Positions 8,539 through 40,585 of a stretch of 64,000 bases of DNA are shown here, one piece after another. The stretch lies in contig CAYUET010000002.1 of assembly GCA_964443875.1 (NCBI GenBank), forward strand, positions 70,082 to 134,081. The letters run 5' to 3'. Numbering within the stretch: position 1 is the stretch's first letter; each line of letters starts with the position of its first letter. This stretch comes from an uncultured bacterium. GTDB taxonomy: Bacteria; Auribacterota; JAFGBW01. The notes beneath the pieces are model-generated. The model saw only the letters and a list, made by a program, of their open reading frames with translations. It was not told the origin of the DNA and did not search any database. The translations under genes were made by a program, and so were the position numbers.

Positions 8539-10890
8539 TTATAAACTTGAAGCGGTTTTTTCAAGAATGTGAAATTCAATAATATCACCTTCTTCAAATT
8601 CGTGAAATCCATCCAGCTGAACTCCGCACTCGATTCCCATTTTAACTTCGCCGACATCTTCTTTGTAATGCTTGAGTGTTGCAATTTTATAAGCCTGTTC
8701 GCTGAGTCTCTGTCCGCTGCGCTTAATTCTTCCGTAGGCGCTTTTCAGAATTTTGCCTTCAATTACAAGGCTTCCGGCAATTGCTCCCACTTTTGAAATT
8801 TTAAAGATTTTCTTCACTTCACAGGCACCTATGGGTTTTTCGACGGTTTCAAAGTCCAAAAGACCTTCCATGGCTTTCACAACATCTTCATAGAGTTTAT
8901 AGATTACCTGATACTCCGGAATTTTAACATTAAGCCTTTTGGCAAGGGTCTGCGCAGAAGGACTGACCCTGACGTTAAAGGCAAAAATAATAGCCCCGTA
9001 GGCCTGAGCCAGAGATACATCGGTATCAGTAACGGCGCCTGTGGCGGCATGAATAATTTTTAACTTCACTTTTTCCGAAGTAATGGAGAGAAGTAAAGAA
9101 TTTAAGGCGGCGATCGATCCCTGGAAGTCTGCCTTAAGGACGATTTTAAATTCCTTTTTGGTTTCATTCTGAAGGGAACTGTAAAGATTATCAAGCGTAA
9201 TGACGTCCCTTTTATTGAGCATGTTGCGACGTCTGGATTCCTCTTCCTTTTTTGCCACTTCCTTGGCTTCACGGTCAGAAGGGTAGACTTTGACTTTTGC
9301 CGCAACCTCCGGGACATCTGAGAATCCATATACTTTGACAGGCATGGAGGGAGTCGCTTTTTCTACCTGTTCTCCGCGATCATTTTCCATGCGTCGTATT
9401 TTACCGTAAATATGTCCGCAGACAACCGGATCGCCTGTGGAAATAACTCCATTTTTTACAAGTACCGTGGCCACAGGTCCGAGCTGGTTGGTCTGACAGC
9501 TTTCCAGGATGATTCCGAAAGGTTTTCCTTTTGGATTGGCTTTCAGTTCCAGGACTTCTGCCTGAAGATTAATGGCATCCAGAAGTTCATCGATCCCCTG
9601 ACCGGTTAAAGCCGATACAGCAATAAAAAGATTGTCTCCACCCCATTCTTCAGGGGTAATATTGTAAGGGGCAAGATCGGATTTGATTTTATCCGGATTG
9701 ACGTAAGGAAGATCAATTTTATTAATGGCGACAATGATTGGAACCTGTGCTTCACGGGCATGGCTTATAGATTCAATGGTCTGGGGCTGAATGCCGTCAT
9801 TGGCTGAGACCACCAGAACAACAATATCGGTTACATTCGCCCCCATGGCACGCATGGAGGTAAAAGCCGCATGACCGGGGGTATCAATGAAGCAGATTTT
9901 ACTTCCCTTATGCTGGACCATGTAGGCTCCAATGTGCTGGGTAATTCCTCCTGCTTCAGTATCTACAATTTTTGTTTTACGGATGGTGTCCAGAAGTGTG
10001 GTCTTTCCATGATCCACATGCCCCATGATCGTCACGACAGGGGCACGTACTTCCAGTGCCTCTTCTGTCTGTTCAACAGGGTCCTGTGTCTTTTCTGTGA
10101 TTTTTTTAAGAAGCTCCTGTTCAGGGGCTTTAACTTCCATATGAATTTTGAATTCATCGGCAACGATTAAAATCGTATCTTTGTCCAGGCTCTGGTTAAT
10201 AGAAGCGATCATTCCAAGCAAAAACAGTTTTTTGATGATTTCTGATGCAGGAATATTGGTGGCTTCTGCCAGTTCTTTAACCGTAACGCCGTCGGTAACA
10301 ATAATAGGTTCTTTTGTTTCGGGAACAAAACCAGCCGCATTTACATTTTGAGTGTCAGTAACTGCATCGGTTTCGCCGTCTTTGGTTTTTGGACTGAATT
10401 TTGTTTTTGTTGTTTTTCTTTTGATGTATTGTTCTTCTTCAAAGATTTCCTCAAAAACTTTTTCATATTTTTCAATGTCTACATTTTCTTCAGGAAGTTC
10501 TTCCAGAGTCGTTTCAGCAAAAGTTTTTGCATCCGGGGATTCCTCTGTGGCTACTTTATGCGTCGGAGGAGGAAGCGTGTCTTTTTTTGATTTTGCTTTG
10601 GGGGCCGTTTCTACAGATTTTTTTTCATGTTTTTTGGGTCTGGAGTCATCAGCGGGAGCCGCCTTTTTGGCAGGATTTTCTTTTTTAGCAGCGTGAACAA
10701 CGGGGGAAGGCGCAGACACAGCTGAGGTTCCCATGGCTAAAAGACGTGTGAGTTTTTCTTCCACCACAGTCAGAGATTCCTCAGGTATGGACGAAGAATG
10801 GGTTTTATAAGTTATTTTCAGTTCATCCAAAACAGTCTGAATTTCTTTGGAGGAACAGTTGTGTTTTTTTGCTAATTCATAAATTCGCAT
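8539..10890 (-). CDS. infB: Translation initiation factor IF-2
   Basis: 783 aa. The G domain carries GHVDHGKTTLLD, DTPGH and NKID. The N-terminal region is Lys/Pro-rich and the C-terminal beta-barrel domains are present. Confidence 0.95.
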   Translation of the reverse strand: MRIYELAKKHNCSSKEIQTVLDELKITYKTHSSSIPEESLTVVEEKLTRLLAMGTSAVSAPSPVVHAAKKENPAKKAAPADDSRPKKHEKKSVETAPKAKSKKDTLPPPTHKVATEESPDAKTFAETTLEELPEENVDIEKYEKVFEEIFEEEQYIKRKTTKTKFSPKTKDGETDAVTDTQNVNAAGFVPETKEPIIVTDGVTVKELAEATNIPASEIIKKLFLLGMIASINQSLDKDTILIVADEFKIHMEVKAPEQELLKKITEKTQDPVEQTEEALEVRAPVVTIMGHVDHGKTTLLDTIRKTKIVDTEAGGITQHIGAYMVQHKGSKICFIDTPGHAAFTSMRAMGANVTDIVVLVVSANDGIQPQTIESISHAREAQVPIIVAINKIDLPYVNPDKIKSDLAPYNITPEEWGGDNLFIAVSALTGQGIDELLDAINLQAEVLELKANPKGKPFGIILESCQTNQLGPVATVLVKNGVISTGDPVVCGHIYGKIRRMENDRGEQVEKATPSMPVKVYGFSDVPEVAAKVKVYPSDREAKEVAKKEEESRRRNMLNKRDVITLDNLYSSLQNETKKEFKIVLKADFQGSIAALNSLLLSITSEKVKLKIIHAATGAVTDTDVSLAQAYGAIIFAFNVRVSPSAQTLAKRLNVKIPEYQVIYKLYEDVVKAMEGLLDFETVEKPIGACEVKKIFKISKVGAIAGSLVIEGKILKSAYGRIKRSGQRLSEQAYKIATLKHYKEDVGEVKMGIECGVQLDGFHEFEEGDIIEFHILEKTASSL

Positions 10891-15533: not shown

Positions 15534-18500
15534 TTATTTGGAGTCCATGGAAGAAATCTGAAAATTTTTGAGAATCAAAGCACGGTTTTCCTGGGGCTGT
15601 TTTGTTTTTATTTTCCAGCGTTTGGGTCTGTCAGATTCACAAAGTCCAATCAGAGCAGTAATATTGGCTTCATCTTTCAGAGTCTTCGGGACAGGGATTA
15701 GATGTTCGAACTGGAGAATTCCATTCTTATCAAAATTTTTTGAATAGGGTGAGTGGATTTGAATGTCTTCCTGAAAAAGGAGCTCTCCTTTGGAATTTAA
15801 AAAATGGATGAATAGATTGAACGGCGGGAGTGTTTTCTGGAGACTTTTTCCGGAGCAGTAAAACATGAGATATTCACTGGGTTTGAGAAGATGAGAGGAA
15901 AAGGCGATTGTATTGATTTCTGCTTTTCCGTCAAACAGGGCGTTTACGGGGTGTTTTTGCCATCCTTTGGAATCAGGAAGGGAAGGGGGCTCTGGCAAAG
16001 GATTTGTCATTTCTGCTTCAATCTTTTTCAATGTGAGGGAATTCAGCATAAGCTCAGGAATACCGATCATTACCCGATCCGCTGATAATGTTTCTGAAAA
16101 AAGAAAATCTGTCTGAAAATCTGTTTTCCGGGCAATAAAGCCGTCTGCCCAGATCCACCGGTCGAGACACAGGGGGGTCTTTTTAAGAATATTTCCTTTG
16201 TTGAATAGGGTGATTTTCAGATCATTGAGTTTGATGAGATCAGGATTTCGAAGGCTGATCCGGATCTTTTTTAAAAGAGTGTCCGGCTTAAGGGGGTAGG
16301 AGAGCTGAATTTCGTGAAGGGAGGAGTCATAAAGAATCTGTGGATGGGTTAAACGGGTGAGAAACAGGGACGTTTTATCGGTAAGGGGGGCAAGAGCAGG
16401 CAGGGAAACATAGCTCCATCCTTGGGACTCGTGAACCGAATAAGGGAGATGATTGTCTGTAAAAAATTGTTTTAATCCATTGAGATGAATCGATTCGAGG
16501 AGGAATCCGTTTTCTCCGAAGGGATTGATCACTCTTTCGTTATAGTCCCAAAACAGATACCTGTCCCGGTAACAGGCTTTGTCCTGAATCAGCCGGGGAG
16601 TGGTTAATCCCGGAAGGTGTTTCTGGACGGAGGGAATGAGTGCGGGCGGAAGAAATACTTTTTCTTGAGGATTAAGGCTTTGGATCAGAGACAGGGCTTC
16701 TTTTTTATCGGGTTGAAGGGAGGCATGTTGTTTATAAACAAACAGTTCAGCGATTCCCCATGAATTTTTTCCGGAGAGAGTAAGACGTATTTGTCTGAGG
16801 GGGGTCTCTTTGAAGCGGATATCAATATGTCCGTTCGGAAGGAGACGTATATTACCGTTGAATTCCTGAAAAACAGGAATGTATCCCGGTATTTGTGCAA
16901 GGGTAAGCCATTGCCCGGCTTCCTGGGCTCCTTCCACGAGAATACCTTGAGGAATGGAGGTTACATCCGTTCCGGATACCAGCTCAATTCTGCAGAGGGC
17001 GACAGGAGTCTGACAGTTAAAAGTGAGAGAGGAGTTTTTTTCGGCGGGGGAGGTCCAGAGGGTTGAAAAATGGCGGTCCAGAAGATTTTGTCCAAAAGGC
17101 GCCTTTTTATTTTCCTGTATCGGAATAAGCAGGGCCGATATGTCTTCATAGGCATTGGGGGAAAAGGTGAAATCATGGAAAACCGTGTAGCTGCCCATGT
17201 CCCTCCGTATATAAGAGCAGACAAGAGATTTTAGCTGGGTTTCAAGAGCGTCTGGATTGGGGAGATTCATCCGGCTATCCGTGATCAGGGCAGTTTTTGA
17301 AGCGTCATCCACAAGTTTTAAAAATTCGATGTTTCTGAAACCGCCGAAGTCCGAACAGATAATTTTCTTTTTACTTTCAAAGGAAACCGACTGGGCGGTT
17401 GTGAAATGAGCGTAGGCCTTTGAAATGCCCTGTTGCTCCAGATAACGGATGACTTCTTCCGGGCCTTCCATGCGTTTTTTATCATGGGCGTAAAACTGCA
17501 TGAAGGCCAGATTATAGGGAAGGACAAGAACTATGAGTATGGAAAGGAAGGGAATGTGGAGGACAGGTTTCCAGGCGGCAAATCTTTCAAAAGCGGATAG
17601 AAAGGGAATGCCCAGAAAAACATAGAGAGGCAGCCCGTAGCGGCTTAGTTGTTCCCTGCCGTTCTGGCTGAAGATGAAGCATGCGGCGAAAAAAAGAAGT
17701 CCTGAAAAAAGCATCAAGGAAACAGCATTAGTCTCCTGTCTGTTTTTGAGGCGGTTGCGGAATGAGAAGAAAAAGGACATAAAGGCCGAAATCCACACCA
17801 GCGATGTAAGTCCTGTAATAAGAGGGCCCCAGGGGTGATGGGCGAATTCCCGGCAGCGGCCGAAGAGCATGGAGGATATGTTGATGAAATTGACAAGCTG
17901 GTCGAAGTATACGGAGAAATGGGCAAGTCCCCCTTTCATACGGAAGGTAAGCCACCCGTTTTCAATATTTCCCATCCACCAGGGAAGGCTTCCGATGAAG
18001 AAGAAAAGACTCAGAAGAACCAGGGCTTTTCCCCGGTATTCGGAACGAAGCCGGATGAAAAAGACAAGGGCTCCTGCCCCCAGAAAGGGAAGGATCATCA
18101 TAAAGGTCCAGAAGCCTATCCCGGCAATCAGTCCGGCAATGGAGATTGAAACGAGGGGAAAGGAAGCCTCGGAGTTTTTCAGGGCCTGAAGAAGAAGGAT
18201 GAGAAACCAGGTTCCCAGAGCAATAGTTTGCATATAGCCGCCCATAGGGGAGAGACTGTATTCATTAAAAACGAGAGGCGGAATTGTCAGAAAAAGGGCG
18301 GTATAGACGGGAAAACGGTTTCCGTTCATTTTACGTGAAAGAATGAGCATTCCGGCTATGAGAAAGAGGGAGGAGATGAAGGGGGACATGCGGAGCCAGA
18401 AGGTATCCGTGGAAAACAGGGAAAAGAAAAACGCGGCAAGGATCGATTCCAGGGACCCCAGATAGGGGGCCCCCCAGTAAAAGGGTGAAAAACGGCCTTC

Positions 18501-18635
18501 GAGCATATCCATGGCCATGAGCCCGGGAACCGCTTCGTCATAATAGACGTGTCCGAAGCAGGGAAGTTTCCAGAAGATGAAACGAAAGGCAAGGCCTGTT
18601 GCAATCAGAGCAAGTGAAGAGACCCATTTCAACAT
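15534..18635 (-). CDS. GT-C family glycosyltransferase, ArnT/PMT-like (GT39/GT83-type) with a large C-terminal periplasmic domain
   Basis: About 1,033 aa. TM1 is followed by YYDEAVPGLMAMDMLEGRFSPFYWGAPYLGSLE, carrying the DE motif and a PYxxKPPL-like loop of ArnT/PMT. It has at least 10 predicted TM helices. The roughly 550-aa C-terminus is a discoidin-like beta-rich domain. The ATG at 18635 lies 7 nt after the ubiA stop. The longer ORF from 18677 uses GTG and overlaps ubiA. Confidence 0.75.
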   Translation of the reverse strand: MLKWVSSLALIATGLAFRFIFWKLPCFGHVYYDEAVPGLMAMDMLEGRFSPFYWGAPYLGSLESILAAFFFSLFSTDTFWLRMSPFISSLFLIAGMLILSRKMNGNRFPVYTALFLTIPPLVFNEYSLSPMGGYMQTIALGTWFLILLLQALKNSEASFPLVSISIAGLIAGIGFWTFMMILPFLGAGALVFFIRLRSEYRGKALVLLSLFFFIGSLPWWMGNIENGWLTFRMKGGLAHFSVYFDQLVNFINISSMLFGRCREFAHHPWGPLITGLTSLVWISAFMSFFFSFRNRLKNRQETNAVSLMLFSGLLFFAACFIFSQNGREQLSRYGLPLYVFLGIPFLSAFERFAAWKPVLHIPFLSILIVLVLPYNLAFMQFYAHDKKRMEGPEEVIRYLEQQGISKAYAHFTTAQSVSFESKKKIICSDFGGFRNIEFLKLVDDASKTALITDSRMNLPNPDALETQLKSLVCSYIRRDMGSYTVFHDFTFSPNAYEDISALLIPIQENKKAPFGQNLLDRHFSTLWTSPAEKNSSLTFNCQTPVALCRIELVSGTDVTSIPQGILVEGAQEAGQWLTLAQIPGYIPVFQEFNGNIRLLPNGHIDIRFKETPLRQIRLTLSGKNSWGIAELFVYKQHASLQPDKKEALSLIQSLNPQEKVFLPPALIPSVQKHLPGLTTPRLIQDKACYRDRYLFWDYNERVINPFGENGFLLESIHLNGLKQFFTDNHLPYSVHESQGWSYVSLPALAPLTDKTSLFLTRLTHPQILYDSSLHEIQLSYPLKPDTLLKKIRISLRNPDLIKLNDLKITLFNKGNILKKTPLCLDRWIWADGFIARKTDFQTDFLFSETLSADRVMIGIPELMLNSLTLKKIEAEMTNPLPEPPSLPDSKGWQKHPVNALFDGKAEINTIAFSSHLLKPSEYLMFYCSGKSLQKTLPPFNLFIHFLNSKGELLFQEDIQIHSPYSKNFDKNGILQFEHLIPVPKTLKDEANITALIGLCESDRPKRWKIKTKQPQENRALILKNFQISSMDSK

Positions 18636-18642
18636 GATGGAT

Positions 18643-19644
18643 TTACCATTGCCAGAGAGGCATGATTTGATTCTCACTGATGTTGAAAAGGGAGTAAAGG
18701 CCTGGAATTTTACACAGCATCAGGACAATAAAGAGAATGAGACAGAACAGTGTGAAAAAAACAAAATTACGTTCCCTGTAGAGTTTCTCCGGTGCCTGAA
18801 CCGGGCTGTCCGTTTTAAAGCCCAGATAGAGGTAGTAGGTGAGAAATCCTGAGAGGAAAGGAAGCATGAGAATGAGTTCCAGGTGGTAGCGCACCATGAA
18901 AATGCCGGCAAAAAGGCTTCCGGTGACAGCATAGAAGAAGACACTGAAAAGAAGCCGTTCAGGGGTGTAGTGCCGAAAGGATTTTCGGTAGGCTCCGGCT
19001 TTTCCTTCCTGTTTGATTTCCCGAAGTTCCGCAAAGCGCTTGAGGGCCATAAAAAAGGCCCCGTACATCCAGTAGGCGATGAAAAGGGATACCGGAGGAA
19101 AACGGTCCGGAATCAGAATAAACCAGCCCATCACGAGACGGATGGGGTTGTTTATGGATTCGGAAAGGACATCCAGGTAAGGGATTTCCTTGGTGCGGAA
19201 AGGGGAAATATTGTAGAACATTCCCATGATCCACAGGGAGACTGCGGCCCAGCCAAAGGGAATATTGATAGAGAAGGAGAGGCTTATGCCCACACAGGCA
19301 AGAAAGATCCATTCGGCATAACCCAGGGGAATATTGATCAGACCGGAGGGTACGGGTCTGAATTTTTTTTTGGGATGATAAAGGTCAAAGGGGGCATCCA
19401 GGATTTCATTAATCACATAGTTGCTTGAAGCCACAAGGCAGATGGCTGAAACGGAGAGCAGAAGTTTTAAGGGCGAAATGACTGAAAAATCCGGAATCAG
19501 AAAAAAAGCCAGAATAATGCCCAGCCCCATGAAAACGTTTTTAAACCAGTGATCCGGTCTTGCGATATCCACATAGGGCCCGAATTTTCCGAGTGTTTTA
19601 TAGCGGGGAATGGAGGATTTTTCACTTCCATCAATGGTTTTCAT
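18643..19644 (-). CDS. UbiA-family polyprenyl-phosphate 5-phosphoribosyltransferase (DPPR-synthase type)
   Basis: 333 aa with 8-9 TM helices. NEILDAPFDLYHPKKKFRPVPSG matches the NDxxDxxxD...HPxKRFRPIAAG signature of mycobacterial Rv3806c-type decaprenyl-phosphate phosphoribosyltransferases. A second Asp-rich region is present. Confidence 0.75.
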   Translation of the reverse strand: MKTIDGSEKSSIPRYKTLGKFGPYVDIARPDHWFKNVFMGLGIILAFFLIPDFSVISPLKLLLSVSAICLVASSNYVINEILDAPFDLYHPKKKFRPVPSGLINIPLGYAEWIFLACVGISLSFSINIPFGWAAVSLWIMGMFYNISPFRTKEIPYLDVLSESINNPIRLVMGWFILIPDRFPPVSLFIAYWMYGAFFMALKRFAELREIKQEGKAGAYRKSFRHYTPERLLFSVFFYAVTGSLFAGIFMVRYHLELILMLPFLSGFLTYYLYLGFKTDSPVQAPEKLYRERNFVFFTLFCLILFIVLMLCKIPGLYSLFNISENQIMPLWQW

Positions 19645-19809
19645 GATAAGCCCCGGACCTTTCTAAAAAGGATGTTTCCTTGAAGTATAAAAATGTTGTT
19701 TATCAACACTTTTTTCAGATACGTCAATAAAATTATATGCTGGAATTCGCTTTACAAAAAGTTCTGTTTGAAGGAATCTTAAAAACTAATTTTTAAGGAA
19801 TTTAAATAA
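19645..19809. promoter_or_regulatory. AT-rich divergent promoter region between the ubiA-GT-C operon and the GT-C paralog
   Basis: The spacer is 165 bp with no ORF and contains TGTTG-N5-CAACA. The downstream ATG has an AAGGAA RBS. Confidence 0.4.
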
Positions 19810-22800
19810 ATGTTTTTGTTCAAACGGAGCCTTTTCTGGACCTCAGCAGCAATTCTTGTCTTTGTTTTTACACGGCTGTTTTTCATCTCTCTTCCCTCCT
19901 ATGCGGTCACTTATTTTGATGAGGCGATCACCGGGCTTATGGGGATGCATCTTTTAAGGGGTGAGTTTCCCGTATTTTACTGGGGTTGTCCCTATCTAGG
20001 GCCTCTGGAGGCCCTGTTTGCAGCTCTTTTTTTTCTTATCACCGGAGAAGCCTCCACTTTTGCCTTAAGGCTTTCCCCACTCCTGGCCTACCTGATCTAT
20101 GGAGGAGCCCTTTTAGCCCAGGCAAGACTCACCATGAAAAAGGAAGTCTTTTATTTCTGTTTTCTGTTTCTGATTTTTCCGCCTTATTATCTTCTTCATT
20201 TTTCTCTGACCGCCATCGGGGATTACATGAATACGGTCATGCTTGGAAGTTTAATGATACTTCTGACCTCTATCATGATTACGGATGAAAAACGGCTGAA
20301 TTTACGGAATGTTTTTCTTCTGGGGCTTCTTTCGGGTTTTTCCTTCTGGACTTTTATTCAGACTGCGCCTGTGATTCTGGCCTGCCATTTGATTCTGTTT
20401 CTCCGGATGCGTTTCAGCTATCCGGGAATCCCTCTGCTTCTTTCCTTTCTGGGATTTGTTCTGGGGAGTCTTCCCTTCTGGATGTGGAACTGGAATAACG
20501 ATTTTTTAACCTTTACCATGAAAGTCACGGGGGCTGACCCGGGAAGTTTTCCGGGTCATGCCCGTAATTATTATGAGGTGTTAAAACTACTTCTGGGTAA
20601 CTATTCCCTTCAGCCCCAGGGATACAGGACTTTTACCGCAGGCCTTGCCGCTTTTTTTCTGATCGCGGTTCCCTGTCTTCTTTTTTCCGGACAGGGTCTT
20701 TTTGCGAGACTTAAGAAACCTGATCCTCTTCTCCTTTTGATTGTTGCTTTTACCGGAAACTCTCTGGCTTATATTGTAAGCTCGCATGGAGATCTTAAAC
20801 TCCCGCGTTATCTTCTTCCTCTTTATTCCTCGCTTCCTGTTCTTCTGCCTTTTGCCTTATCTTTTCTGCTTAAAGGGCGTTATTTTTTTGTTTTTTCAAC
20901 AGGGCTTCTTCTTTTGATGAGCCTTCCTGAAAATATCCGCTTTACGAAAAGTAATCTCGATCCTGCCTATATCAATCGTTTCACGCCCAGAAGAGCGGAA
21001 TTAAATGAGTTTTTTGATTATCTGGGACAGAATAATATCCGGCATCTTTATGGGGCCTACTGTTTTACTCAGATATTGACTTTTGAGTCCAAAAAATCGG
21101 TGACTGCTGCGGATTATTCGGGTTTCAGAAATATGAGTTACCTGCGGGAGGCGGACAATGACCCTCGCACCGGGCTTGCCGCAGAGGATCTTCTGGGGGC
21201 TCCGGACAGTGATTCCCTGGAATCCACAATCAAGCTTTTGACGAGGAAATATCAGAAGAAAAAATGCGGCCGTTTTACTGTTTTTCATGATTTTAAAATT
21301 AATGACGCCTCTGATGCCCCTTTGCCCTCCGGCAGCATTCAGAGTATTTCGGTATGTGAACAGCAGGAACGGAAAAATTTACTGAATGACAGGATTTTTG
21401 AAACCTTCTGGGAAACGCAAAAGCCCATGACCGGCAAAGAGTGGATAACTTTGACTTTTGTGAAACCGGTGAGGGTGACGCGGCTTCTTCTGATTCCGGG
21501 GACGGATTATCTTGCCTTTCCAAGAGGGCTTCGCATGGAAGGAACGGATGTCCGCGGGCACAGGATCAAGCTTGCAGAGGCGAAATCCATTTGCGGATCT
21601 TTCAAGGTTTTTCATGGAAAGCCAAGGCTTTTTGGGAAAGGGGAAATTGAGATCCGTCTGGACAAAGAAACAGAGCTTTCTTCTGTCACACTTTTTCAGA
21701 CCGGGGAGGATCGCTTTTTTCATTGGAAAATAGGGGAGATTATCCCTTTTGAACAGAAACAGGAAAATTCTCTTTTAATCAGCTCTGTGCCTGAAATTCC
21801 GGAGGACAGATTTCTTGTTACAACCCCGGAGCTATATCTCAAACATTATTATAAAACTTTCCATGATCAGCAAACCATTCCTCTTTATCCGCCCATGCTG
21901 ACTTATCTGCACTGGTCAAGGGTATGGGACTATGACACTCCCAAAAGGTATTTGAATATGGATTCTGATCTTTTGTTTATTTTGCCGCCTGATCATTGGG
22001 AGTATTTTAAAAATTATCTTCAGTCCCATGAAATAGCCTATAGTCTGAAGGAAACGCACAACCTCGTTACTGTGCAAACACAGTCCTGCGGGATTCCGAA
22101 AGATCGAAAATACATCCCTTTGCTGCCCCGGACAAAATGGGCAGAGACTTTTAATCAAAATCCGGTATTTGAAGCTTTTTTTCCTGAGCCTGTCTTGCTT
22201 TATGGTTTTAAACTGGCAAAACCGCCATGTGGATTTCAGTGGAAAGATCTGATGATTGAGATTCTGGATTCGGGCGGAGAATGGAAGTCTGTTGCTTTTA
22301 AAACTCATGAGGCCTATTGGACGGATGAAGTGATTCTGGAATCCTGCCGTGAGGGCTCAGAGGTACATTTTGAAAAACCGGTTCCTGCTCAAAAAGTTCG
22401 GTTTATTCTTCATGGCCTTTACAAAACACCTCAGGATCTTGAGGATTTCTGCAAATCAGAGATTATTGGGGATTTTAAATCCGGGAAGGACGAGTATCTG
22501 GTAAAAAAGACTGAGGCTTCGGGTTCTGTGGCAATTTTTGAAGAAACCCTTTCTCTGGATGATTTTTCTCTTAATCCTTCAAACCCTCATCCGGGCGGGT
22601 ATCTTGAGGTTCATGCCCGTTTTTCATGGCTTAAAAAGAAGAGAAAGAATATGGCTTCTACTTTTTTCCTTCATGCCCTGGACTCCACAGGGTATAAAGT
22701 TTTTCAGCTGGACAGAGATCTGGATTTTGGTAGAAACCCTCAGGATTTAAAAAAACCTTTTGAGAGGAAATATTTTATAAAAATCCCTGAATCCATTAAG

Positions 22801-22950
22801 GAGAAGTCTTTAAGGGTGATTATCGGGCTTTATGATCAGCGAACGGGTAAGCGTTCCAAGCCCTCTTCTTCTCATCCTGTCGACATGAGGTCTGTTGAGC
22901 TGGGGGAGATTTTTATTGCCCCTGATGTTCACAGACCAGAAGATCAGTGA
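19810..22950 (+). CDS. GT-C family glycosyltransferase, ArnT/PMT-like, paralog of 15534..18635
   Basis: 1,046 aa. YFDEAITGLMGMHLLRGEFPVFYWGCPYLGPLE aligns residue by residue with the paralog. Homology continues through the C-terminal domain (FESKKSV...YSGFRNMSYLRE versus FESKKKI...FGGFRNIEFLK). Confidence 0.75.
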   Translation: MFLFKRSLFWTSAAILVFVFTRLFFISLPSYAVTYFDEAITGLMGMHLLRGEFPVFYWGCPYLGPLEALFAALFFLITGEASTFALRLSPLLAYLIYGGALLAQARLTMKKEVFYFCFLFLIFPPYYLLHFSLTAIGDYMNTVMLGSLMILLTSIMITDEKRLNLRNVFLLGLLSGFSFWTFIQTAPVILACHLILFLRMRFSYPGIPLLLSFLGFVLGSLPFWMWNWNNDFLTFTMKVTGADPGSFPGHARNYYEVLKLLLGNYSLQPQGYRTFTAGLAAFFLIAVPCLLFSGQGLFARLKKPDPLLLLIVAFTGNSLAYIVSSHGDLKLPRYLLPLYSSLPVLLPFALSFLLKGRYFFVFSTGLLLLMSLPENIRFTKSNLDPAYINRFTPRRAELNEFFDYLGQNNIRHLYGAYCFTQILTFESKKSVTAADYSGFRNMSYLREADNDPRTGLAAEDLLGAPDSDSLESTIKLLTRKYQKKKCGRFTVFHDFKINDASDAPLPSGSIQSISVCEQQERKNLLNDRIFETFWETQKPMTGKEWITLTFVKPVRVTRLLLIPGTDYLAFPRGLRMEGTDVRGHRIKLAEAKSICGSFKVFHGKPRLFGKGEIEIRLDKETELSSVTLFQTGEDRFFHWKIGEIIPFEQKQENSLLISSVPEIPEDRFLVTTPELYLKHYYKTFHDQQTIPLYPPMLTYLHWSRVWDYDTPKRYLNMDSDLLFILPPDHWEYFKNYLQSHEIAYSLKETHNLVTVQTQSCGIPKDRKYIPLLPRTKWAETFNQNPVFEAFFPEPVLLYGFKLAKPPCGFQWKDLMIEILDSGGEWKSVAFKTHEAYWTDEVILESCREGSEVHFEKPVPAQKVRFILHGLYKTPQDLEDFCKSEIIGDFKSGKDEYLVKKTEASGSVAIFEETLSLDDFSLNPSNPHPGGYLEVHARFSWLKKKRKNMASTFFLHALDSTGYKVFQLDRDLDFGRNPQDLKKPFERKYFIKIPESIKEKSLRVIIGLYDQRTGKRSKPSSSHPVDMRSVELGEIFIAPDVHRPEDQ

Positions 22951-36643: not shown

Positions 36644-37021
36644 TTAAATGATTCTTTTAAATTCCCTCAGATAGAGATCCTCGGTCATTATGCTTATAAA
36701 TTTATCATCATCGCATATGCTGATAATATCCTTCATTCTTAACAGCGGAAAAAAATGTTCTGTTAACCAGACTTTCAAATTTCCCCGGTCATCGCACATG
36801 AAGATTTTCCCACCGGAACTGGTGAAATTTTCAGTAAGTTTTACGACATCATATTTTTCATGGCAGATGTTTTTATATTTTAATCCCGAGTCCACAAAAT
36901 AGATATAAACATGTGCCTGTTCCATAAGGTGAAAGGATGCATAGCGCACAGCCACCCAGCAGGTTTCAATATCATTGGTCGAAATGATAATGCCCACTTT
37001 TTTATTTTCAGTCTTTTTCAT
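36644..37021 (-). CDS. Small DsrE/DsrF/YchN-like protein (tentative)
   Basis: 125 aa. KKVGIIISTNDIETCWVAVRYA and KIFMCDD loosely match the DsrE-like fold. The RBS is weak. Confidence 0.4.
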   Translation of the reverse strand: MKKTENKKVGIIISTNDIETCWVAVRYASFHLMEQAHVYIYFVDSGLKYKNICHEKYDVVKLTENFTSSGGKIFMCDDRGNLKVWLTEHFFPLLRMKDIISICDDDKFISIMTEDLYLREFKRII

Positions 37022-37353
37022 AATCTTTATTTAATCTTTTTTATATAAATAACCAACCAGTTTTTTATGGAGATCAATCCTTTGTGCAAACGGGCGGCAT
37101 CAGTCCCTGGGGAGCCCTTCAGCTATGGCTATCCCGTATACGGCATGAATATAAACATAAATCCTTTTTTTTGAAATTGGACTCCAATTGATTCCAGATT
37201 TCTATTTATAAAATGTGCGGGTAAAAGAATCCAAAAAAGTCTTTTCCGCGTGACGTAAGTTTAAAATAGTATTATAAGAAAAAACTTCATGATTGCGACA
37301 CAGTGTTTTAGTATAAAAAAGCAGGCTTTTCCCTTTCAACTTAAAAAGGACTT

Positions 37354-38895
37354 TTGCCCATGACATCTTTGGTTAACACATATTTTAATAACTCTGTTAT
37401 TCAGGGAAGTATCAATCTTTTTCTTCTTGTTCTGATCGTTACAGGTGTCTGTTTTCTGATTATCGGGCATGAGCGCAGAAGTGACAGGGAAAAACTTCAC
37501 CCCTGGTTCGGGCAATATACCGTAAACATCCCCAATTTCATGTCCTATCTCCGTTTTCCAATCGGGGCCTTTATGTGCTGTATTTACTTTTTTACGATTT
37601 TCCATACCCCTTTCTGGAATTTTATTTTCCATTTATGTTTTGCCCTGGTCTGTGTTTTTGACTATCTGGACGGAACCTTTGCCCGAAAATGGAATGCCAT
37701 CACCGAAGACGGGAAATCCCTGGATCCGGCATCAGATAAATGGGTCACTTTCTGCCTTGCTCTTCTGGGCTTTTTTTATGCGGGACTTCGCTGGTGGGTG
37801 CTTGCGATTGTGGTTGTCCGCGAGGTTTTAAGCATGTTTCAAAGGGCAAGAATGCGGCGCAAGGGAGAGGATGTTTCAGCCAAATGGCTTGGGAAGGTGA
37901 AAACGGGGGTGCAGTTTGCCGTACTCTATATTGTCATTTTGAGATCCCCTGTTCTGCCTGGTACGATTGGTCTGGACCAGTTTGCAAAAATGCTTCCTGA
38001 CGGTCTTGTTCTCTGGGGAATGCTTCTGATGTGCTTTTGCACCATTATTTCCCTGTTCCCCTTTTATAAAACATTTTCCTATGTGAACGATTATACCAAA
38101 TCTCAGAAGGAGGAATGCAATAAGGCCTGGTATATTCTTGGCATTCCGAACTTCTTTACCATGGGGAATTATCTTTGCGGGGTCACGGCTGTCTATTTTG
38201 CGATGCCGGAGGTGCATGTGGACTACCGGCCTTTTGTGGTGCTGTTCTGGATTATCGCGGCCGGGATTTGCGATGCCATCGACGGTCCCATGGCCAGAAA
38301 ATTGAAGTCCTATTCGGATTTCGGAGCCTGCCTGGATTCTTCGGTGGATCTTTCCACCTTCGGTCTTGCTACCGCCATCATTATTTCCTTCCGTTTCTGG
38401 CAGGAAAACTGGCCTTTGCTGGGCATTGTTCTTGGCTCGATCTATTTTGTTTTCGTTCATTTGCGGCTTGCGCGTTTTACCGTGCTTTTAAATGATAATG
38501 AGGATAAAACCAAAAAACAGGATTTTGTCGGCATGCCTTCCCCTTCCGGCTCCATGGGAGTGATGGTGGCGTTTACTTTTTTTCAGGAGGTCTGGGCGCT
38601 TACGATTGCGGTTCTTTTTCTTTCCTGGGTCATGTACAGCAAATTGGATTTCATCAGTCATTCGAATTCCGTTAAACATACGATTTATAGATATGTGCTG
38701 ATCCCTTTTGTTCTCATCGGTTTTTTTATGCTTTGTATCCTGGTGTTTCAGCAGCCTTTTGTGAGTGCGCATACGTCCCGTGAACTGATTATTTATTTTA
38801 AAATTTGTTCCTGGATTCTTTTTGTGCCCTGGATGATCTATATGCTGGATGCTATCTGGAGGACCTATATCCGGAAATGGATCAAAGAGGTTTAA
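37354..38895 (+). CDS. Membrane protein with two tandem CDP-alcohol phosphatidyltransferase domains
   Basis: 513 aa. Two complete DGx2ARx8Gx3Dx3D signatures are present: FDYLDGTFARKWNAITEDGKSLDPASD and DAIDGPMARKLKSYSDFGACLDSSVD. Each sits in its own TM bundle. Confidence 0.8.
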   Translation: MPMTSLVNTYFNNSVIQGSINLFLLVLIVTGVCFLIIGHERRSDREKLHPWFGQYTVNIPNFMSYLRFPIGAFMCCIYFFTIFHTPFWNFIFHLCFALVCVFDYLDGTFARKWNAITEDGKSLDPASDKWVTFCLALLGFFYAGLRWWVLAIVVVREVLSMFQRARMRRKGEDVSAKWLGKVKTGVQFAVLYIVILRSPVLPGTIGLDQFAKMLPDGLVLWGMLLMCFCTIISLFPFYKTFSYVNDYTKSQKEECNKAWYILGIPNFFTMGNYLCGVTAVYFAMPEVHVDYRPFVVLFWIIAAGICDAIDGPMARKLKSYSDFGACLDSSVDLSTFGLATAIIISFRFWQENWPLLGIVLGSIYFVFVHLRLARFTVLLNDNEDKTKKQDFVGMPSPSGSMGVMVAFTFFQEVWALTIAVLFLSWVMYSKLDFISHSNSVKHTIYRYVLIPFVLIGFFMLCILVFQQPFVSAHTSRELIIYFKICSWILFVPWMIYMLDAIWRTYIRKWIKEV

Positions 38896-40186: not shown

Positions 40187-40585
40187 TTATTGCTGGACGT
40201 TGAAGAAAATGTAGGCGAGAACTCCGGAGAGGATAATAAGAGCCAGGCGGTTTAAATGTTTGATGATATGGAATTTTTCTTCATTTTCAGGGGCGATCAC
40301 ATCATCGGCCAGTTCCTCGAAATTCTGAAAAAGCTCTATTCCGATGAAAATGCAGAGAAGGAGAATTAAAAAGGGGTGATACGATATAAACTGATAGAGG
40401 GATTGAAAACTTTTAGAAAACCCTGTAAAGATGATGGTCAGGGTCAGGCAGGCAATAAAGATCTTTAAAAATTTCTGATGAATTTTCAGCATAAAAAATT
40501 CCCTTCTGCTCAAGTATTTTGAAATACGGTTGAAAGGATTCTTCCTGTTTAACACATTATAGCTTTTCAGAAGGAATGTTTCCAT
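40187..40585 (-). CDS. Hypothetical small membrane protein
   Basis: 132 aa with three hydrophobic helices. Confidence 0.4.
   Translation of the reverse strand: METFLLKSYNVLNRKNPFNRISKYLSRREFFMLKIHQKFLKIFIACLTLTIIFTGFSKSFQSLYQFISYHPFLILLLCIFIGIELFQNFEELADDVIAPENEEKFHIIKHLNRLALIILSGVLAYIFFNVQQ

What the first reader, a model, noticed from the sequence alone, without database searches (positions are those of the whole stretch)
37354..38895. Fused tandem CDP-alcohol phosphatidyltransferase domains in one 513-aa membrane protein
Two complete DGxxARx8Gx3Dx3D active-site signatures are present: FDYLDGTFARKWNAITEDGKSLDPASD and DAIDGPMARKLKSYSDFGACLDSSVD. Each lies in its own set of TM helices.

Single-domain enzymes of this family (PgsA, PssA, Pis and others) are about 180-250 aa and act as homodimers. 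A two-domain fusion could catalyse two successive head-group transfers, for example toward an inositol-type, di-myo-inositol-phosphate-like or unusual glycerophospholipid. One domain could also be regulatory.

Together with the DUF21-CBS fusion, this suggests the lineage tends to fuse dimeric membrane modules into one polypeptide.
Basis: seen in the sequence. Interest (0 to 1): 0.55.

Follow-up and report, generated by a model that had tools for sequence, protein, structure and literature searches.

The report
Fused PgsA-like and PssA-like lipid synthase
One membrane protein joins a phosphatidylglycerophosphate-synthase-like half to a phosphatidylserine-synthase-like half, so it probably makes the precursors of both main bacterial membrane lipid classes; the fusion is real and conserved in many uncultured bacteria, but nobody has studied it.

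Summary
ORF 37354..38895(+) is 513 aa, or more likely 511 aa from the ATG at 37360. It holds the only two complete DxxDGxxAR-x8-G-x3-D-x3-D signatures in the 64-kb window.

It is not a duplicated domain. The halves are only 27% identical. The N half is PgsA-like and the C half is type-II PssA-like.

Residues that bind the acceptor substrate in the S. aureus PgsA and M. jannaschii PSS crystal structures are conserved in the matching halves across 45 homologs. The AlphaFold2 model (pLDDT 88, pTM 0.88) shows an extra TM helix, a 6-TM PgsA fold, a conserved linker helix and an 8-helix PSS fold. Both motifs face the cytoplasm.

All 32 species-level genomes that carry both halves keep them in one uninterrupted ORF. 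All are MAGs labelled Desulfobacterales, Auribacterota or Verrucomicrobiota/Kiritimatiellia. A second family of about 445 aa, named in Margulisiibacteriota, has the same architecture.

Best reading: a bifunctional PGP/PS synthase at the CDP-diacylglycerol branch point, probably a covalent pseudo-heterodimer. Successive transfers, an inositol or DIP-type product, and a regulatory half are not supported.

Neither half reaches its NCBIfam equivalog cut-off, and activity is untested. I could not check whether stand-alone pgsA and pssA coexist in these genomes. I found no paper on the fusion. It is a new variant of a known kind, of moderate interest.

The parts
37345..37350 (+). Shine-Dalgarno-like AAAGGA, 9 nt upstream of the ATG at 37360. 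That ATG is the likely true start; the TTG at 37354 is only 3 nt downstream of the site.
   Evidence: Sequence read. The closest homolog P0001 is 511 aa.
37354..38895 (+). Whole ORF including the stop codon: 513 aa from the TTG, or 511 aa from the ATG at 37360. It is flanked by minus-strand genes on both sides (a Na+/H+-exchanger/TrkA-C protein and a 125-aa ORF upstream, RNase PH downstream).
37393..37464 (+). Extra N-terminal transmembrane helix TM0 (residues 14-37). It is hydrophobic but poorly conserved, and the ~445-aa family lacks it. It would place the N-terminus outside the cell.
   Evidence: AF2 helix 14-37. Mean Kyte-Doolittle hydropathy 2.35. Region 1-48 shows 26% mean pairwise identity. 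The hhalign match to A2 begins at profile column 46 of A1, window residue 54.
37498..38049 (+). PgsA-like half (residues 49-232). It has a near-invariant HPxFG..T lead-in, a PNxxSxxR TM1 signature and six TM helices.
   Evidence: TIGR00560 gives 77.7 bits for the isolated N half. phmmer and the profile hit PDB 7drj. Foldseek gives 7drk_B a target-normalised TM-score of 0.80 and rmsd 2.5 A.
37660..37737 (+). Catalytic signature 1, D103xxD106G107xxA110R111-x8-G120xxxD124xxxD128. It is followed by K129, which aligns with S. aureus PgsA K83.
   Evidence: In 45 sequences D103, A110, G120, D124 and D128 are 45/45, and D106, G107 and R111 are 44/45.
37819..37902 (+). Basic residues that align with the glycerol-3-phosphate phosphate-binding residues of S. 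aureus PgsA: R156 (SaR110), R164 (SaR118) and K183 (SaK137). K181 and T184 are also conserved.
   Evidence: HMMER alignment to 7drj, residue roles from PMC8640168, and conservation of 44/45, 45/45 and 45/45.
38050..38127 (+). Conserved cytoplasmic inter-domain linker (residues 233-258) with a short horizontal helix at 239-248. F235, P236, F241, Y243, N245 and Y247 are invariant. It may correspond to the N-terminal horizontal helix of M. jannaschii PSS.
   Evidence: Invariant columns, 59% mean identity, helix 239-248, and the description of the MjPSS horizontal helix in PMC8633023. The equivalence with that helix is inferred.
38128..38892 (+). Type-II PssA-like half (residues 259-513). It has a PNxxTxGNxxCG TM1 signature and eight helices, including two half-length helices (396-409 and 413-428), plus two short strands (about 391-392 and 432-433), as in M. 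jannaschii PSS.
   Evidence: TIGR00473 gives 78.8 bits for the isolated C half. PDB hits are 7b1k and 7pow. Foldseek target-normalised TM-scores are 0.69-0.78.
38272..38349 (+). Catalytic signature 2, D307xxD310G311xxA314R315-x8-G324xxxD328(S329)xxD332. The D-S pair after G2 matches the PSS serine-binding D62/S63.
   Evidence: D310, G311, R315 and G324 are 45/45. D307, D328 and D332 are 44/45. S329 is 40/45.
38464..38547 (+). PSS-type RLARF motif (R371, R374, F375, aligning with MjPSS R101, R104, F105) and the DFVGMPSPSG strand motif (G393, P395 and P397 invariant).
   Evidence: Alignment to 7b1k and 7pow, residue roles from PMC8633023, and conservation.

Best explanation
The gene encodes a natural fusion of two different CDP-alcohol phosphatidyltransferases. 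An N-terminal PgsA-like domain (6 TM helices, preceded by one extra TM helix) is joined by a conserved cytoplasmic linker helix to a C-terminal type-II PssA-like domain (8 helices).

Most likely each half is an independent, active catalytic centre that uses CDP-diacylglycerol. The N half would transfer the phosphatidyl group to sn-glycerol-3-phosphate, giving phosphatidylglycerophosphate, the precursor of PG and cardiolipin. The C half would transfer it to L-serine, giving phosphatidylserine, the precursor of PE. One polypeptide would then carry both enzymes of the CDP-DAG branch point in fixed 1:1 stoichiometry.

Stand-alone enzymes of this family are homodimers through TM3/TM4. The two halves here probably pack against each other as an intramolecular pseudo-heterodimer with both active sites on the cytoplasmic face.

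Shown here: the fusion, its conservation, the subfamily affinity of each half, conservation of catalytic and acceptor-binding residues, and the predicted folds and topology.

Inferred: the actual substrates and products, that both sites are active, the pseudo-dimer packing, and any benefit of the fusion such as co-regulation of the zwitterionic/anionic lipid ratio.
For: 1. One ORF holds two complete signatures, the only two in the window. Pfam PF01066 matches in two stretches at 144.5 bits.
2. The halves are only 27% identical. The isolated N half scores best on pgsA TIGR00560 (77.7 bits, against ClsA 51 and PIPS 17). The isolated C half scores best on pssA TIGR00473 (78.8) and the archaetidylserine synthase models (about 70), against pgsA 28.6 and Pcs 17.
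3. The only PDB sequence hits are S. aureus PgsA (7drj) for the N half and M. jannaschii PSS (7b1k, 7pow) for the C half.
4. The SaPgsA residues that hold the 3'-phosphate of PGP are K83, R110, R118 and K137 (PMC8640168). They align with K129, R156, R164 and K183, conserved in 44-45 of 45 sequences.
5. The MjPSS serine ligands D62, S63, D66 and F105, and the functionally tested R101 (R101E abolishes activity) and R104 (R104E about halves it) (PMC8633023), align with D328, S329, D332, F375, R371 and R374, conserved in 39-44 of 45.
6. The AF2 model has pLDDT 88.3 and pTM 0.88. It reproduces the 6-TM PgsA fold and the 8-helix PSS fold, including the two half-helices and two short strands. Foldseek gives 7drk_B a target-normalised TM-score of 0.80 and 7b1k_B 0.78, both with probability 1.00.
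7. Loop charges give K+R 19 inside and 3 outside when both motifs face the cytoplasm.
8. All 32 species-level genomes with both halves have one uninterrupted ORF, with the motifs 204-214 residues apart.
9. The halves and the linker are equally conserved, at 59%, 61% and 59%.
10. A second family of about 445 aa has the same order and aligns over 424 columns, across the linker (hhalign probability 100, E 6e-61). It keeps the same substrate residues. JGI's automatic names for some members are 'PgsA/PssA'.
Against: - Neither half reaches the NCBIfam equivalog cut-off: pgsA 77.7 (95.1 for the whole protein) against 109.1, and pssA 78.8 (88.8) against 107. The nearest stand-alone proteins are at most about 40% identical, so specificity could have drifted.
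- No activity data exist for any member.
- No psd, pgp or cdsA gene lies next to it, and the gene neighbourhood is not conserved.
- Every genome found with it is a MAG, from at least three phyla. The protein is more similar across phyla (58-63%) than IF-2 is between the window and an Aureabacteria MAG. That pattern fits horizontal transfer and possibly an accessory role rather than a housekeeping one.
- I could not test whether stand-alone pgsA or pssA coexist in the same genomes.
- The pseudo-dimer packing is inferred from the pTM value alone, because model coordinates are not returned.
Confidence: 0.6

Rival explanations
1. Both halves are catalytic, but at least one has a non-canonical substrate. 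Examples are a CDP-AP-type cardiolipin synthase (PG acceptor), a phospho-inositol acceptor, another amino-alcohol such as threonine, or an ether- or isoprenoid-linked CDP donor. The protein would then be an accessory enzyme that makes a specialised lipid alongside housekeeping PgsA and PssA.
For: Both halves score below their equivalog cut-offs. The clade is long-branched and at most 40% identical to any stand-alone enzyme. It is patchily spread across phyla, only in MAGs, and no isolate genome was hit among 185,579 species representatives. The C half scores almost as well on the archaetidylserine synthase models (about 70 bits) as on bacterial pssA (78.8).
Against: The four basic residues that bind the G3P phosphate, and the serine-binding D-S...D, R..RF and F residues, are conserved. 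ClsA, PIPS, AIPS, Pcs and DIPPS models all score clearly lower than pgsA and pssA. The genome scan used two family-specific peptide patterns, so the absence of isolates is not strong evidence.
Confidence: 0.22
2. Only one half is an enzyme. The other is a pseudo-enzyme that serves as a structural dimer partner or regulatory subunit.
For: Two family members have one degenerate signature. P0048 has FDVVHDQLAGRY in the N half. P0061 (locus L031, a PVC-group MAG) has CEALDG...LASSMAL in the C half. So one site can decay while the fusion is kept. The SaPgsA protomers act independently, with a Hill coefficient near 1, so dimer partners need not both be active.
Against: In 43 of 45 sequences both signatures are kept, apart from conservative A-to-S changes at A314 in three of them, along with both sets of acceptor-binding residues. 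The two halves have the same mean conservation. The same holds in the independent ~445-aa family.
Confidence: 0.08
3. One reading: the two domains act in succession on one lipid, making an inositol-, DIP- or otherwise doubly modified head group.
For: It rests only on the presence of two transferase domains. The N half weakly matches archaetidylinositol-phosphate synthase (35.9 bits) and IPCT/DIPPS (20.9 bits).
Against: Each domain needs its own CDP-activated donor. The best matches are two enzymes that compete for the same donor, not consecutive steps. There is no cytidylyltransferase domain. The inositol-type models score far below their cut-offs and below pgsA and pssA.
Confidence: 0.05
4. 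Artefact: two adjacent genes were merged by a sequencing error or a missed stop codon.
For: None found. One MAG has the halves on two contigs (L033 and L034), but both are cut at contig ends.
Against: There are 32 independent assemblies with one uninterrupted ORF and constant motif spacing, about 60 full-length protein clusters, and a linker with six invariant residues.
Confidence: 0.01

Closest known systems
PgsA, CDP-diacylglycerol--glycerol-3-phosphate 3-phosphatidyltransferase (S. aureus PgsA, PDB 7DRJ/7DRK; NCBIfam TIGR00560)
   Same: The N half has the same 6-TM fold (target-normalised TM-score 0.80, rmsd 2.5 A) and the full catalytic signature. It has D-P after G2 and K after D4. K129, R156, R164 and K183 align with the G3P-phosphate ligands K83, R110, R118 and K137. 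It also has the PNxxSxxR TM1 motif with N61 aligned to the cytosine-contacting N5.
   Different: It scores below the equivalog cut-off (77.7 against 109.1). It has an extra N-terminal TM helix and an HPxFG lead-in. It is covalently joined to a PssA-like domain rather than forming a homodimer. Activity is untested.
Type-II (CDP-AP) phosphatidylserine synthase PssA/PSS (M. jannaschii PSS, PDB 7B1K/7B1L/7POW; NCBIfam TIGR00473; archaetidylserine synthase TIGR04217/NF038087)
   Same: The C half has eight helices with two half-length helices, and two short strands at the positions of the MjPSS beta1-beta2 hairpin. Target-normalised TM-scores are up to 0.78. The D-S...D serine pocket, the RLARF motif and the F.G.PSP.G strand motif are conserved.
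   Different: It scores below the equivalog cut-off (78.8 against 107). Its N-terminal horizontal helix is the linker from the PgsA half. Its presumed dimer partner is a PgsA-like domain rather than a second PSS.
The ~445-aa PgsA-PssA fusion family of Ca. Margulisiibacteriota/Marinamargulisbacteria and other MAGs (alignment A2; some members named 'PgsA/PssA' by JGI's automatic annotation)
   Same: It has the same domain order. It aligns with the window family over 424 columns, including the linker (hhalign probability 100, E 6e-61). It keeps the same catalytic and substrate residues.
   Different: Identity is only 27-32%. It lacks TM0 and has a shorter C-terminus. In a bootstrapped NJ tree the N halves of the two families do not group together to the exclusion of stand-alone PgsA (1% support), so common or independent origin is unresolved. 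This family is also uncharacterised.
IPCT-DIPPS of Archaeoglobus fulgidus (PDB 4MND), the known bifunctional fusion in this superfamily
   Same: It is a single polypeptide that combines two activities of one lipid or solute pathway, and it contains one CDP-AP membrane domain.
   Different: There the partner is a soluble cytidylyltransferase that makes the CDP-alcohol, so the steps are consecutive. Here the partner is a second CDP-AP membrane domain of another subfamily, so the steps are parallel. NF041135 scores 20.9 bits against a cut-off of 580.

Membership tests
CDP-alcohol phosphatidyltransferase superfamily (Pfam PF01066) | Score above the Pfam gathering threshold | tested here: met
   144.5 bits against 22, in two matched stretches.
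CDP-alcohol phosphatidyltransferase superfamily (Pfam PF01066) | D1xxD2G1xxAR...G2xxxD3xxxD4 signature | tested here: met
   Present twice, at residues 103-128 and 307-332. Conserved across 45 homologs.
CDP-alcohol phosphatidyltransferase superfamily (Pfam PF01066) | Polytopic membrane fold with the signature on TM2-TM3 at the cytoplasmic face | tested here: met
   Prediction only. AF2 helices 86-112/118-142 and 292-317/322-350 carry the motifs. K+R is 19 inside and 3 outside.
CDP-alcohol phosphatidyltransferase superfamily (Pfam PF01066) | Dimeric assembly through TM3/TM4 | not testable with these tools
   A pTM of 0.88 for the whole chain implies a confident relative placement of the halves. 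Coordinates and predicted aligned errors are not returned, so intramolecular pseudo-dimer packing is inferred.
PgsA equivalog (NCBIfam TIGR00560) | Score at or above the curated cut-off of 109.1 bits | tested here: not met
   77.7 bits for the N half alone and 95.1 for the whole protein. It is nevertheless the best-scoring model for this half.
PgsA equivalog (NCBIfam TIGR00560) | Basic pocket for the phosphate of glycerol-3-phosphate (SaPgsA K83, R110, R118, K137) | tested here: met
   K129, R156, R164 and K183 by HMMER alignment to 7drj, conserved in 44-45 of 45. Residue roles are from PMC8640168.
PgsA equivalog (NCBIfam TIGR00560) | PGP synthase activity with CDP-DAG and sn-glycerol-3-phosphate | not testable with these tools
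   Needs an enzyme assay or complementation.
Type-II PssA equivalog (NCBIfam TIGR00473) | Score at or above the curated cut-off of 107 bits | tested here: not met
   78.8 bits for the C half alone and 88.8 for the whole protein. It is the best-scoring model for this half.
Type-II PssA equivalog (NCBIfam TIGR00473) | Serine pocket and arginine network (MjPSS D62, S63, D66, F105, R101, R104) | tested here: met
   D328, S329, D332, F375, R371 and R374. Conserved in 44, 40, 44, 44, 44 and 39 of 45. Residue roles are from PMC8633023.
Type-II PssA equivalog (NCBIfam TIGR00473) | Eight-helix architecture with two half-length helices and a short cytoplasmic beta-hairpin | tested here: met
   Prediction only. 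Helices are at 259-283, 292-317, 322-350, 354-380, 396-409, 413-428, 443-469 and 472-512, with strands near 391 and 432. Foldseek target-normalised TM-scores are 0.69-0.78 to 7b1k and 7pow.
Type-II PssA equivalog (NCBIfam TIGR00473) | PS synthase activity with CDP-DAG and L-serine | not testable with these tools
   Needs an enzyme assay or complementation.
IPCT/DIPPS (di-myo-inositol-phosphate pathway; NF041135) | Cytidylyltransferase domain plus DIPPS-type CDP-AP domain; score at or above 580 | tested here: not met
   20.9 bits. There is no nucleotidyltransferase domain in Pfam or NCBIfam.
Phosphatidylinositol-phosphate / archaetidylinositol-phosphate synthases (NF045883, NF040950, NF052561) | Score at or above the cut-off (170 / 180 / 350) | tested here: not met
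   17-27, 36-37 and 17 bits respectively.
CDP-AP-type cardiolipin synthase ClsA (NF053678) | Score at or above 240 | tested here: not met
   51.0 bits for the N half and 23 for the C half.

The most novel reading that the evidence does not exclude
The fusion is an obligate covalent heterodimer of two different CDP-alcohol phosphatidyltransferases. The active sites would be completed or allosterically coupled across the pseudo-dimer interface, as homodimeric relatives use residues from the second protomer near the acceptor site. A single protein would then set the ratio of anionic (PG/CL) to zwitterionic (PS/PE) lipid at the CDP-DAG branch point. Alternatively, one half has been retuned so that the pair makes a so-far undescribed head group in anaerobic sediment bacteria. 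The same architecture in two deeply separated families would then point to a selectable advantage of linking these two enzymes.
Probability: 0.15. Interest if true: 0.7.

Novelty: new variant of a known kind. Interest (0 to 1): 0.45.

Why it matters
How bacteria with a membrane-integral (type-II) PssA balance zwitterionic and anionic phospholipids is poorly understood. The E. coli paradigm relies on a peripheral, PLD-type PssA.

A natural fusion of PgsA and PssA would fix the two branch-point enzymes at 1:1. It would also place them in one pseudo-dimer. That gives a ready-made system for asking whether CDP-AP protomers communicate, and a compact two-in-one gene for synthetic-cell lipid synthesis.

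It also matters for annotation. These proteins are currently named after one half only, or generically, so pathway reconstructions for Desulfobacterales, Auribacterota, Kiritimatiellia and Margulisiibacteriota MAGs may wrongly report pgsA or pssA as missing.

Set against that, both catalytic modules are well-known enzymes. If they simply work side by side, the finding is a domain-fusion curiosity.

Tried and rejected
- Exact-sequence look-ups of the window protein (511-aa and 513-aa forms) and of the window's IF-2 found no contig record. The source assembly, and hence the rest of the genome, could not be reached. IF-2 is nevertheless 100% identical to an unnamed NCBI protein on a 222-kb contig.
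- Coexistence of stand-alone pgsA, pssA, psd or pgp in the same genomes could not be tested. Only about 20 kb around each hit is available, and none of those stretches, about 0.5 Mb in total, contains another CDP-AP signature. At that size the result is uninformative.
- I looked for a conserved neighbourhood or operon and found none. Neighbours differ in every locus. tblastn of all window proteins against all loci shows no synteny. The one suggestive neighbour is a PlsC-type acyltransferase two genes upstream in L052.
- The single-origin test of the two fusion families gave conflicting signals. The NJ bootstrap gives 1% support for joint monophyly of the N halves, while the profile alignment spans the linker. 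The question is left unresolved. NJ on 159 columns is weak, and no maximum-likelihood tool was available.
- Five literature searches for any description of a PgsA-PssA or tandem CDP-AP fusion found nothing relevant. One further search call was rejected for a syntax error.
- A recent tandem duplication is rejected because the halves are only 27% identical and belong to different subfamilies.
- The promoter and terminator scan around the gene gave counts close to the shuffled expectation and no convincing sites.
Full report
**1. The observation**

The ORF listing returns a single ORF at 37354..38895 on the + strand, 513 aa, starting at TTG.

The sequence upstream reads ...AAAAAGGACTTTTGCCCATG.... 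The AAAGGA at 37345-37350 is 9 nt from the ATG at 37360 and only 3 nt from the TTG. The nearest homolog, P0001 (97% identical), is 511 aa. The true product is therefore probably 511 aa from 37360. Residue numbers below follow the 513-aa ORF.

A six-frame regular-expression scan of the whole window finds the full D..DG..AR-x8-G...D...D signature exactly twice, at 37660-37737 and 38272-38349, both in this ORF. Pfam PF01066 matches in two stretches with 144.5 bits against a gathering score of 22.

**2. What the two halves are**

The halves are not copies of each other. BLASTP of residues 1-250 against 251-513 gives 27% identity over 136 residues.

Scanned separately against NCBIfam:
- The N half scores best on pgsA TIGR00560 (77.7 bits). 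Next are E. coli-type PgsA (58.2), ClsA (51.0), AIPS (35.9), pssA (22.7) and PIPS (17.2).
- The C half scores best on pssA TIGR00473 (78.8 bits). Next are the two archaetidylserine synthase models (70.4 and 69.5), AIPS (37.0), pgsA (28.6), PIPS (26.6) and Pcs (17.1).

Both best scores are below the curated equivalog cut-offs of 109.1 and 107. I therefore do not file the halves as members of those equivalogs, only as PgsA-like and PssA-like members of PF01066.

Against all PDB sequences, only three distinct chains match:
- S. aureus PgsA (7drj/7drk) on the N half.
- M. jannaschii PSS (7b1k and 7pow) on the C half.

**3. Substrate-binding residues**

The SaPgsA paper (PMC8640168) reports that the 3'-phosphate of the product PGP, that is the phosphate of glycerol-3-phosphate, is held by K83, R110, R118 and K137, plus Y181. 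Alanine mutants of the four basic residues lose activity. In the HMMER alignment to 7drj, whose chain numbering is offset by 20, these four align with K129, R156, R164 and K183. Across 45 family members they are conserved 44/45, 44/45, 45/45 and 45/45.

The MjPSS paper (PMC8633023) identifies the catalytic serine site as D62, S63, D66 and F105. It also describes a conserved R101/R104 network, in which R101E abolishes activity. These align with D328, S329, D332, F375, R371 and R374. Conservation is 44, 40, 44, 44, 44 and 39 of 45.

The residue after D3 also follows the subfamily habit: D-P in the N half, as in PgsA, and D-S in the C half, as in PSS.

These mappings come from sequence alignment, not from a structural superposition.

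**4. Predicted structure and topology**

AlphaFold2 on the 45-sequence alignment gives mean pLDDT 88.3 and pTM 0.88, with no segment below 50. The helices are:
- 14-37, an extra TM0.
- 56-79, 86-112, 118-142, 147-169, 177-196 and 216-232, the six TMs of the PgsA half.
- 239-248, a short linker helix.
- 259-283, 292-317, 322-350, 354-380, 396-409, 413-428, 443-469 and 472-512.

The last eight include two half-length helices, and there are two short strands near 391 and 432. That is the unusual architecture described for MjPSS.

Foldseek against the PDB returns MjPSS chains (target-normalised TM-score 0.69-0.78) and SaPgsA chains (0.65-0.80; 7drk_B rmsd 2.5 A over 192 columns), all with probability 1.00. 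Every unrelated fold falls far behind.

With the catalytic motifs placed at the cytoplasmic ends of TM2/TM3 in each half, the loops carry 19 K+R inside and 3 outside. The two active sites are therefore predicted to face the cytoplasm in parallel, and the linker is cytoplasmic.

A pTM of 0.88 for a 513-residue two-domain chain implies that the relative placement of the halves is predicted with confidence. Stand-alone family members dimerise through TM3/TM4 in SaPgsA and through helices 1, 3 and 4 plus the N-terminal horizontal helix in MjPSS. I therefore infer an intramolecular pseudo-heterodimer. I could not inspect coordinates, so this step is inference.

**5. The fusion is conserved, not an artefact**

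The word-indexed protein search finds about 60 full-length clusters of 496-534 aa at 42-97% identity. Scores then drop sharply to single-domain PssA-like proteins at E about 1e-14.

A scan of one genome per species (185,579 species) finds 32 genomes with both halves. A further MAG has the two halves on two contig ends. In all 32, both signatures lie in one uninterrupted stop-to-stop ORF, 204-214 residues apart.

Mean pairwise identity is 59% in the PgsA half, 61% in the PSS core and 59% in the linker. The linker has six invariant residues: F235, P236, F241, Y243, N245 and Y247. TM0 is only 26% identical.

Two members carry one degenerate signature: P0048 in the N half and P0061/L031 in the C half. 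All others keep both signatures; three of them carry a conservative A-to-S change at A314.

**6. Who has it**

All genomes found are MAGs. They are labelled Desulfobacteraceae, Desulfobacterales, Desulfococcaceae, Desulfosalsimonadaceae, Desulfobulbales, Desulfurivibrionaceae, Candidatus Auribacterota, Verrucomicrobiota, Kiritimatiellia or 'PVC group'. No isolate genome was hit. The scan used two family-specific peptide patterns, so this absence is only suggestive.

The window's own IF-2 is 100% identical to an unnamed NCBI protein on a 222-kb contig. Its nearest named relative is a Candidatus Aureabacteria (Auribacterota) MAG, and unnamed relatives reach 65-89% identity. The window is therefore probably from an uncultured lineage near Auribacterota.

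The fusion protein is 58% identical to the Auribacterota copy and 63% to a Desulfobacteraceae copy. That is similar to or higher than the IF-2 similarity to Aureabacteria. This fits strong constraint, horizontal spread, or both.

The gene neighbourhood is not conserved and contains no psd, pgp or cdsA:
- The window has a Na+/H+-exchanger/TrkA-C protein, a 125-aa ORF with no Pfam match, and RNase PH.
- Other loci have unrelated neighbours.
- One locus, L052, has a PlsC-type acyltransferase two genes upstream.

**7. A wider architecture**

The exhaustive HMMER search of 1.84 billion cluster representatives shows that the window family collapses to a few representatives. It also reveals many other two-signature proteins:
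- P0121 (474 aa, 40% identical) and P0122 (501 aa, 34%).
- A large set of about 440-456-aa proteins at 28-32% identity, aligned in one stretch over query residues about 57-473.
- Proteins of 340-400 aa that also carry two signatures.

A search with one of the ~445-aa proteins, P0134, returns well over 100 clusters. The named ones come from Candidatus Margulisiibacteriota/Marinamargulisbacteria and unclassified marine MAGs. JGI's automatic annotation calls several of them 'CDP-diacylglycerol--glycerol-3-phosphate 3-phosphatidyltransferase/CDP-diacylglycerol--serine O-phosphatidyltransferase'.

Their alignment (A2) keeps both signatures and the same PgsA-type and PSS-type substrate residues as invariant columns. 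It aligns with the window family over 424 columns, across the linker (hhalign probability 100, E 6e-61, 27% identity).

I built a neighbour-joining tree of 159 core columns with 100 bootstraps:
- The window-family N halves plus P0121 and P0122 form a clade (95%).
- The Margulis-type N halves form a clade (95%).
- The window-family C halves form a clade (98%).
- The two families together are not monophyletic to the exclusion of stand-alone PgsA-like sequences (1%).

Whether there was one ancient fusion or two remains unresolved.

**8. Mechanism and rivals**

The best-supported reading is a bifunctional PGP synthase/PS synthase. Two independent CDP-diacylglycerol-consuming sites on one chain, probably packed as a pseudo-heterodimer, would feed the anionic (PG/CL) and zwitterionic (PS to PE) branches. 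I put this at about 0.6.

- Main rival, about 0.2: one or both halves have drifted to another acceptor or donor, and the gene is accessory. This fits the sub-threshold equivalog scores, the long branches and the patchy MAG-only distribution. The conserved substrate residues and the much lower scores of all other subfamily models argue against it.
- A pseudo-enzyme half, about 0.08: contradicted by the equal conservation of both halves and their catalytic residues, although two members show it can happen.
- An assembly artefact: excluded.

**9. Novelty**

Both modules are textbook enzymes. The only bifunctional fusion in this superfamily that turned up in the papers and structures examined here is IPCT-DIPPS, which joins a soluble cytidylyltransferase to one CDP-AP domain. 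It appears in the Foldseek list as 4mnd and is described in PMC8633023.

I found no paper that describes a CDP-AP/CDP-AP fusion in five full-text searches. Databases name these proteins generically, or after one half, or with both names in JGI's automatic annotation.

I rate it a new variant of a known kind, of moderate interest. It is a clean, testable case of a covalent heterodimer at the phospholipid branch point, and a likely cause of 'missing' pgsA or pssA calls in MAG reconstructions. It is not a new chemistry unless the rival explanation proves true.

Noticed in passing
window 15534-22950: A UbiA-family prenyltransferase gene (18643-19644, minus strand; PF01040, 77.9 bits) sits between two divergently oriented ORFs of about 1046 aa (15534-18677 on the minus strand, 19810-22950 on the plus strand). 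Neither large ORF has a significant Pfam match; one has only a sub-threshold F5/8 type C hit. Their N-termini look like multi-pass membrane proteins. This may be a lipid-linked glycan or cell-envelope module.
   Followed up: partly
P0048 (ENA contig) and P0061 = L031/L054 10001-11536 (PVC-group MAG CAMDGM010000002.1): Two members of the fusion family have one degenerate catalytic signature. P0048 has FDVVHDQLAGRY in the PgsA-like half. P0061 has CEALDG...LASSMAL in the PSS-like half, with D3 and D4 replaced by A. These may be natural half-dead variants that still keep the fusion.
   Followed up: partly
proteins P0140, P0148, P0149, P0159, P0160, P0138, P0165, P0175: Shorter proteins of 340-400 aa from metagenomes also carry two CDP-AP signatures. 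Some have two PgsA-type (D-P) signatures (P0140, P0159). Others combine a PgsA-type with a D-S or D-D type. Tandem CDP-AP fusions therefore seem to have arisen repeatedly in several combinations.
   Followed up: no
window 8539-10890 (minus strand; IF-2): IF-2 is 100% identical to an unnamed NCBI protein (P0383) on a 222-kb contig, so the genome is public. Exact look-ups of IF-2 and of the fusion protein in the contig index nevertheless fail. The nearest named relative is a Candidatus Aureabacteria (Auribacterota) MAG, so the window is probably from an uncultured lineage near that phylum.
   Followed up: partly
L052 7983-8786 (MAG JBLIRR010000008.1): A PlsC-type acyltransferase (PF01553, 267 aa) lies two genes upstream of the fusion gene on the same strand, separated by moeA. 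It is the only phospholipid-related neighbour seen in any locus.
   Followed up: no
window 36644-37021 (minus strand) and 40187-40585 (minus strand): The two small ORFs near the gene (125 aa and 132 aa) have no Pfam match at E<=0.001. The 132-aa one looks like a small membrane protein.
   Followed up: no
window 37354 vs 37360: The mechanical ORF starts at TTG 37354, but the ribosome-binding-site spacing and homolog lengths favour ATG 37360. The protein is then 511 aa rather than 513 aa.
   Followed up: yes
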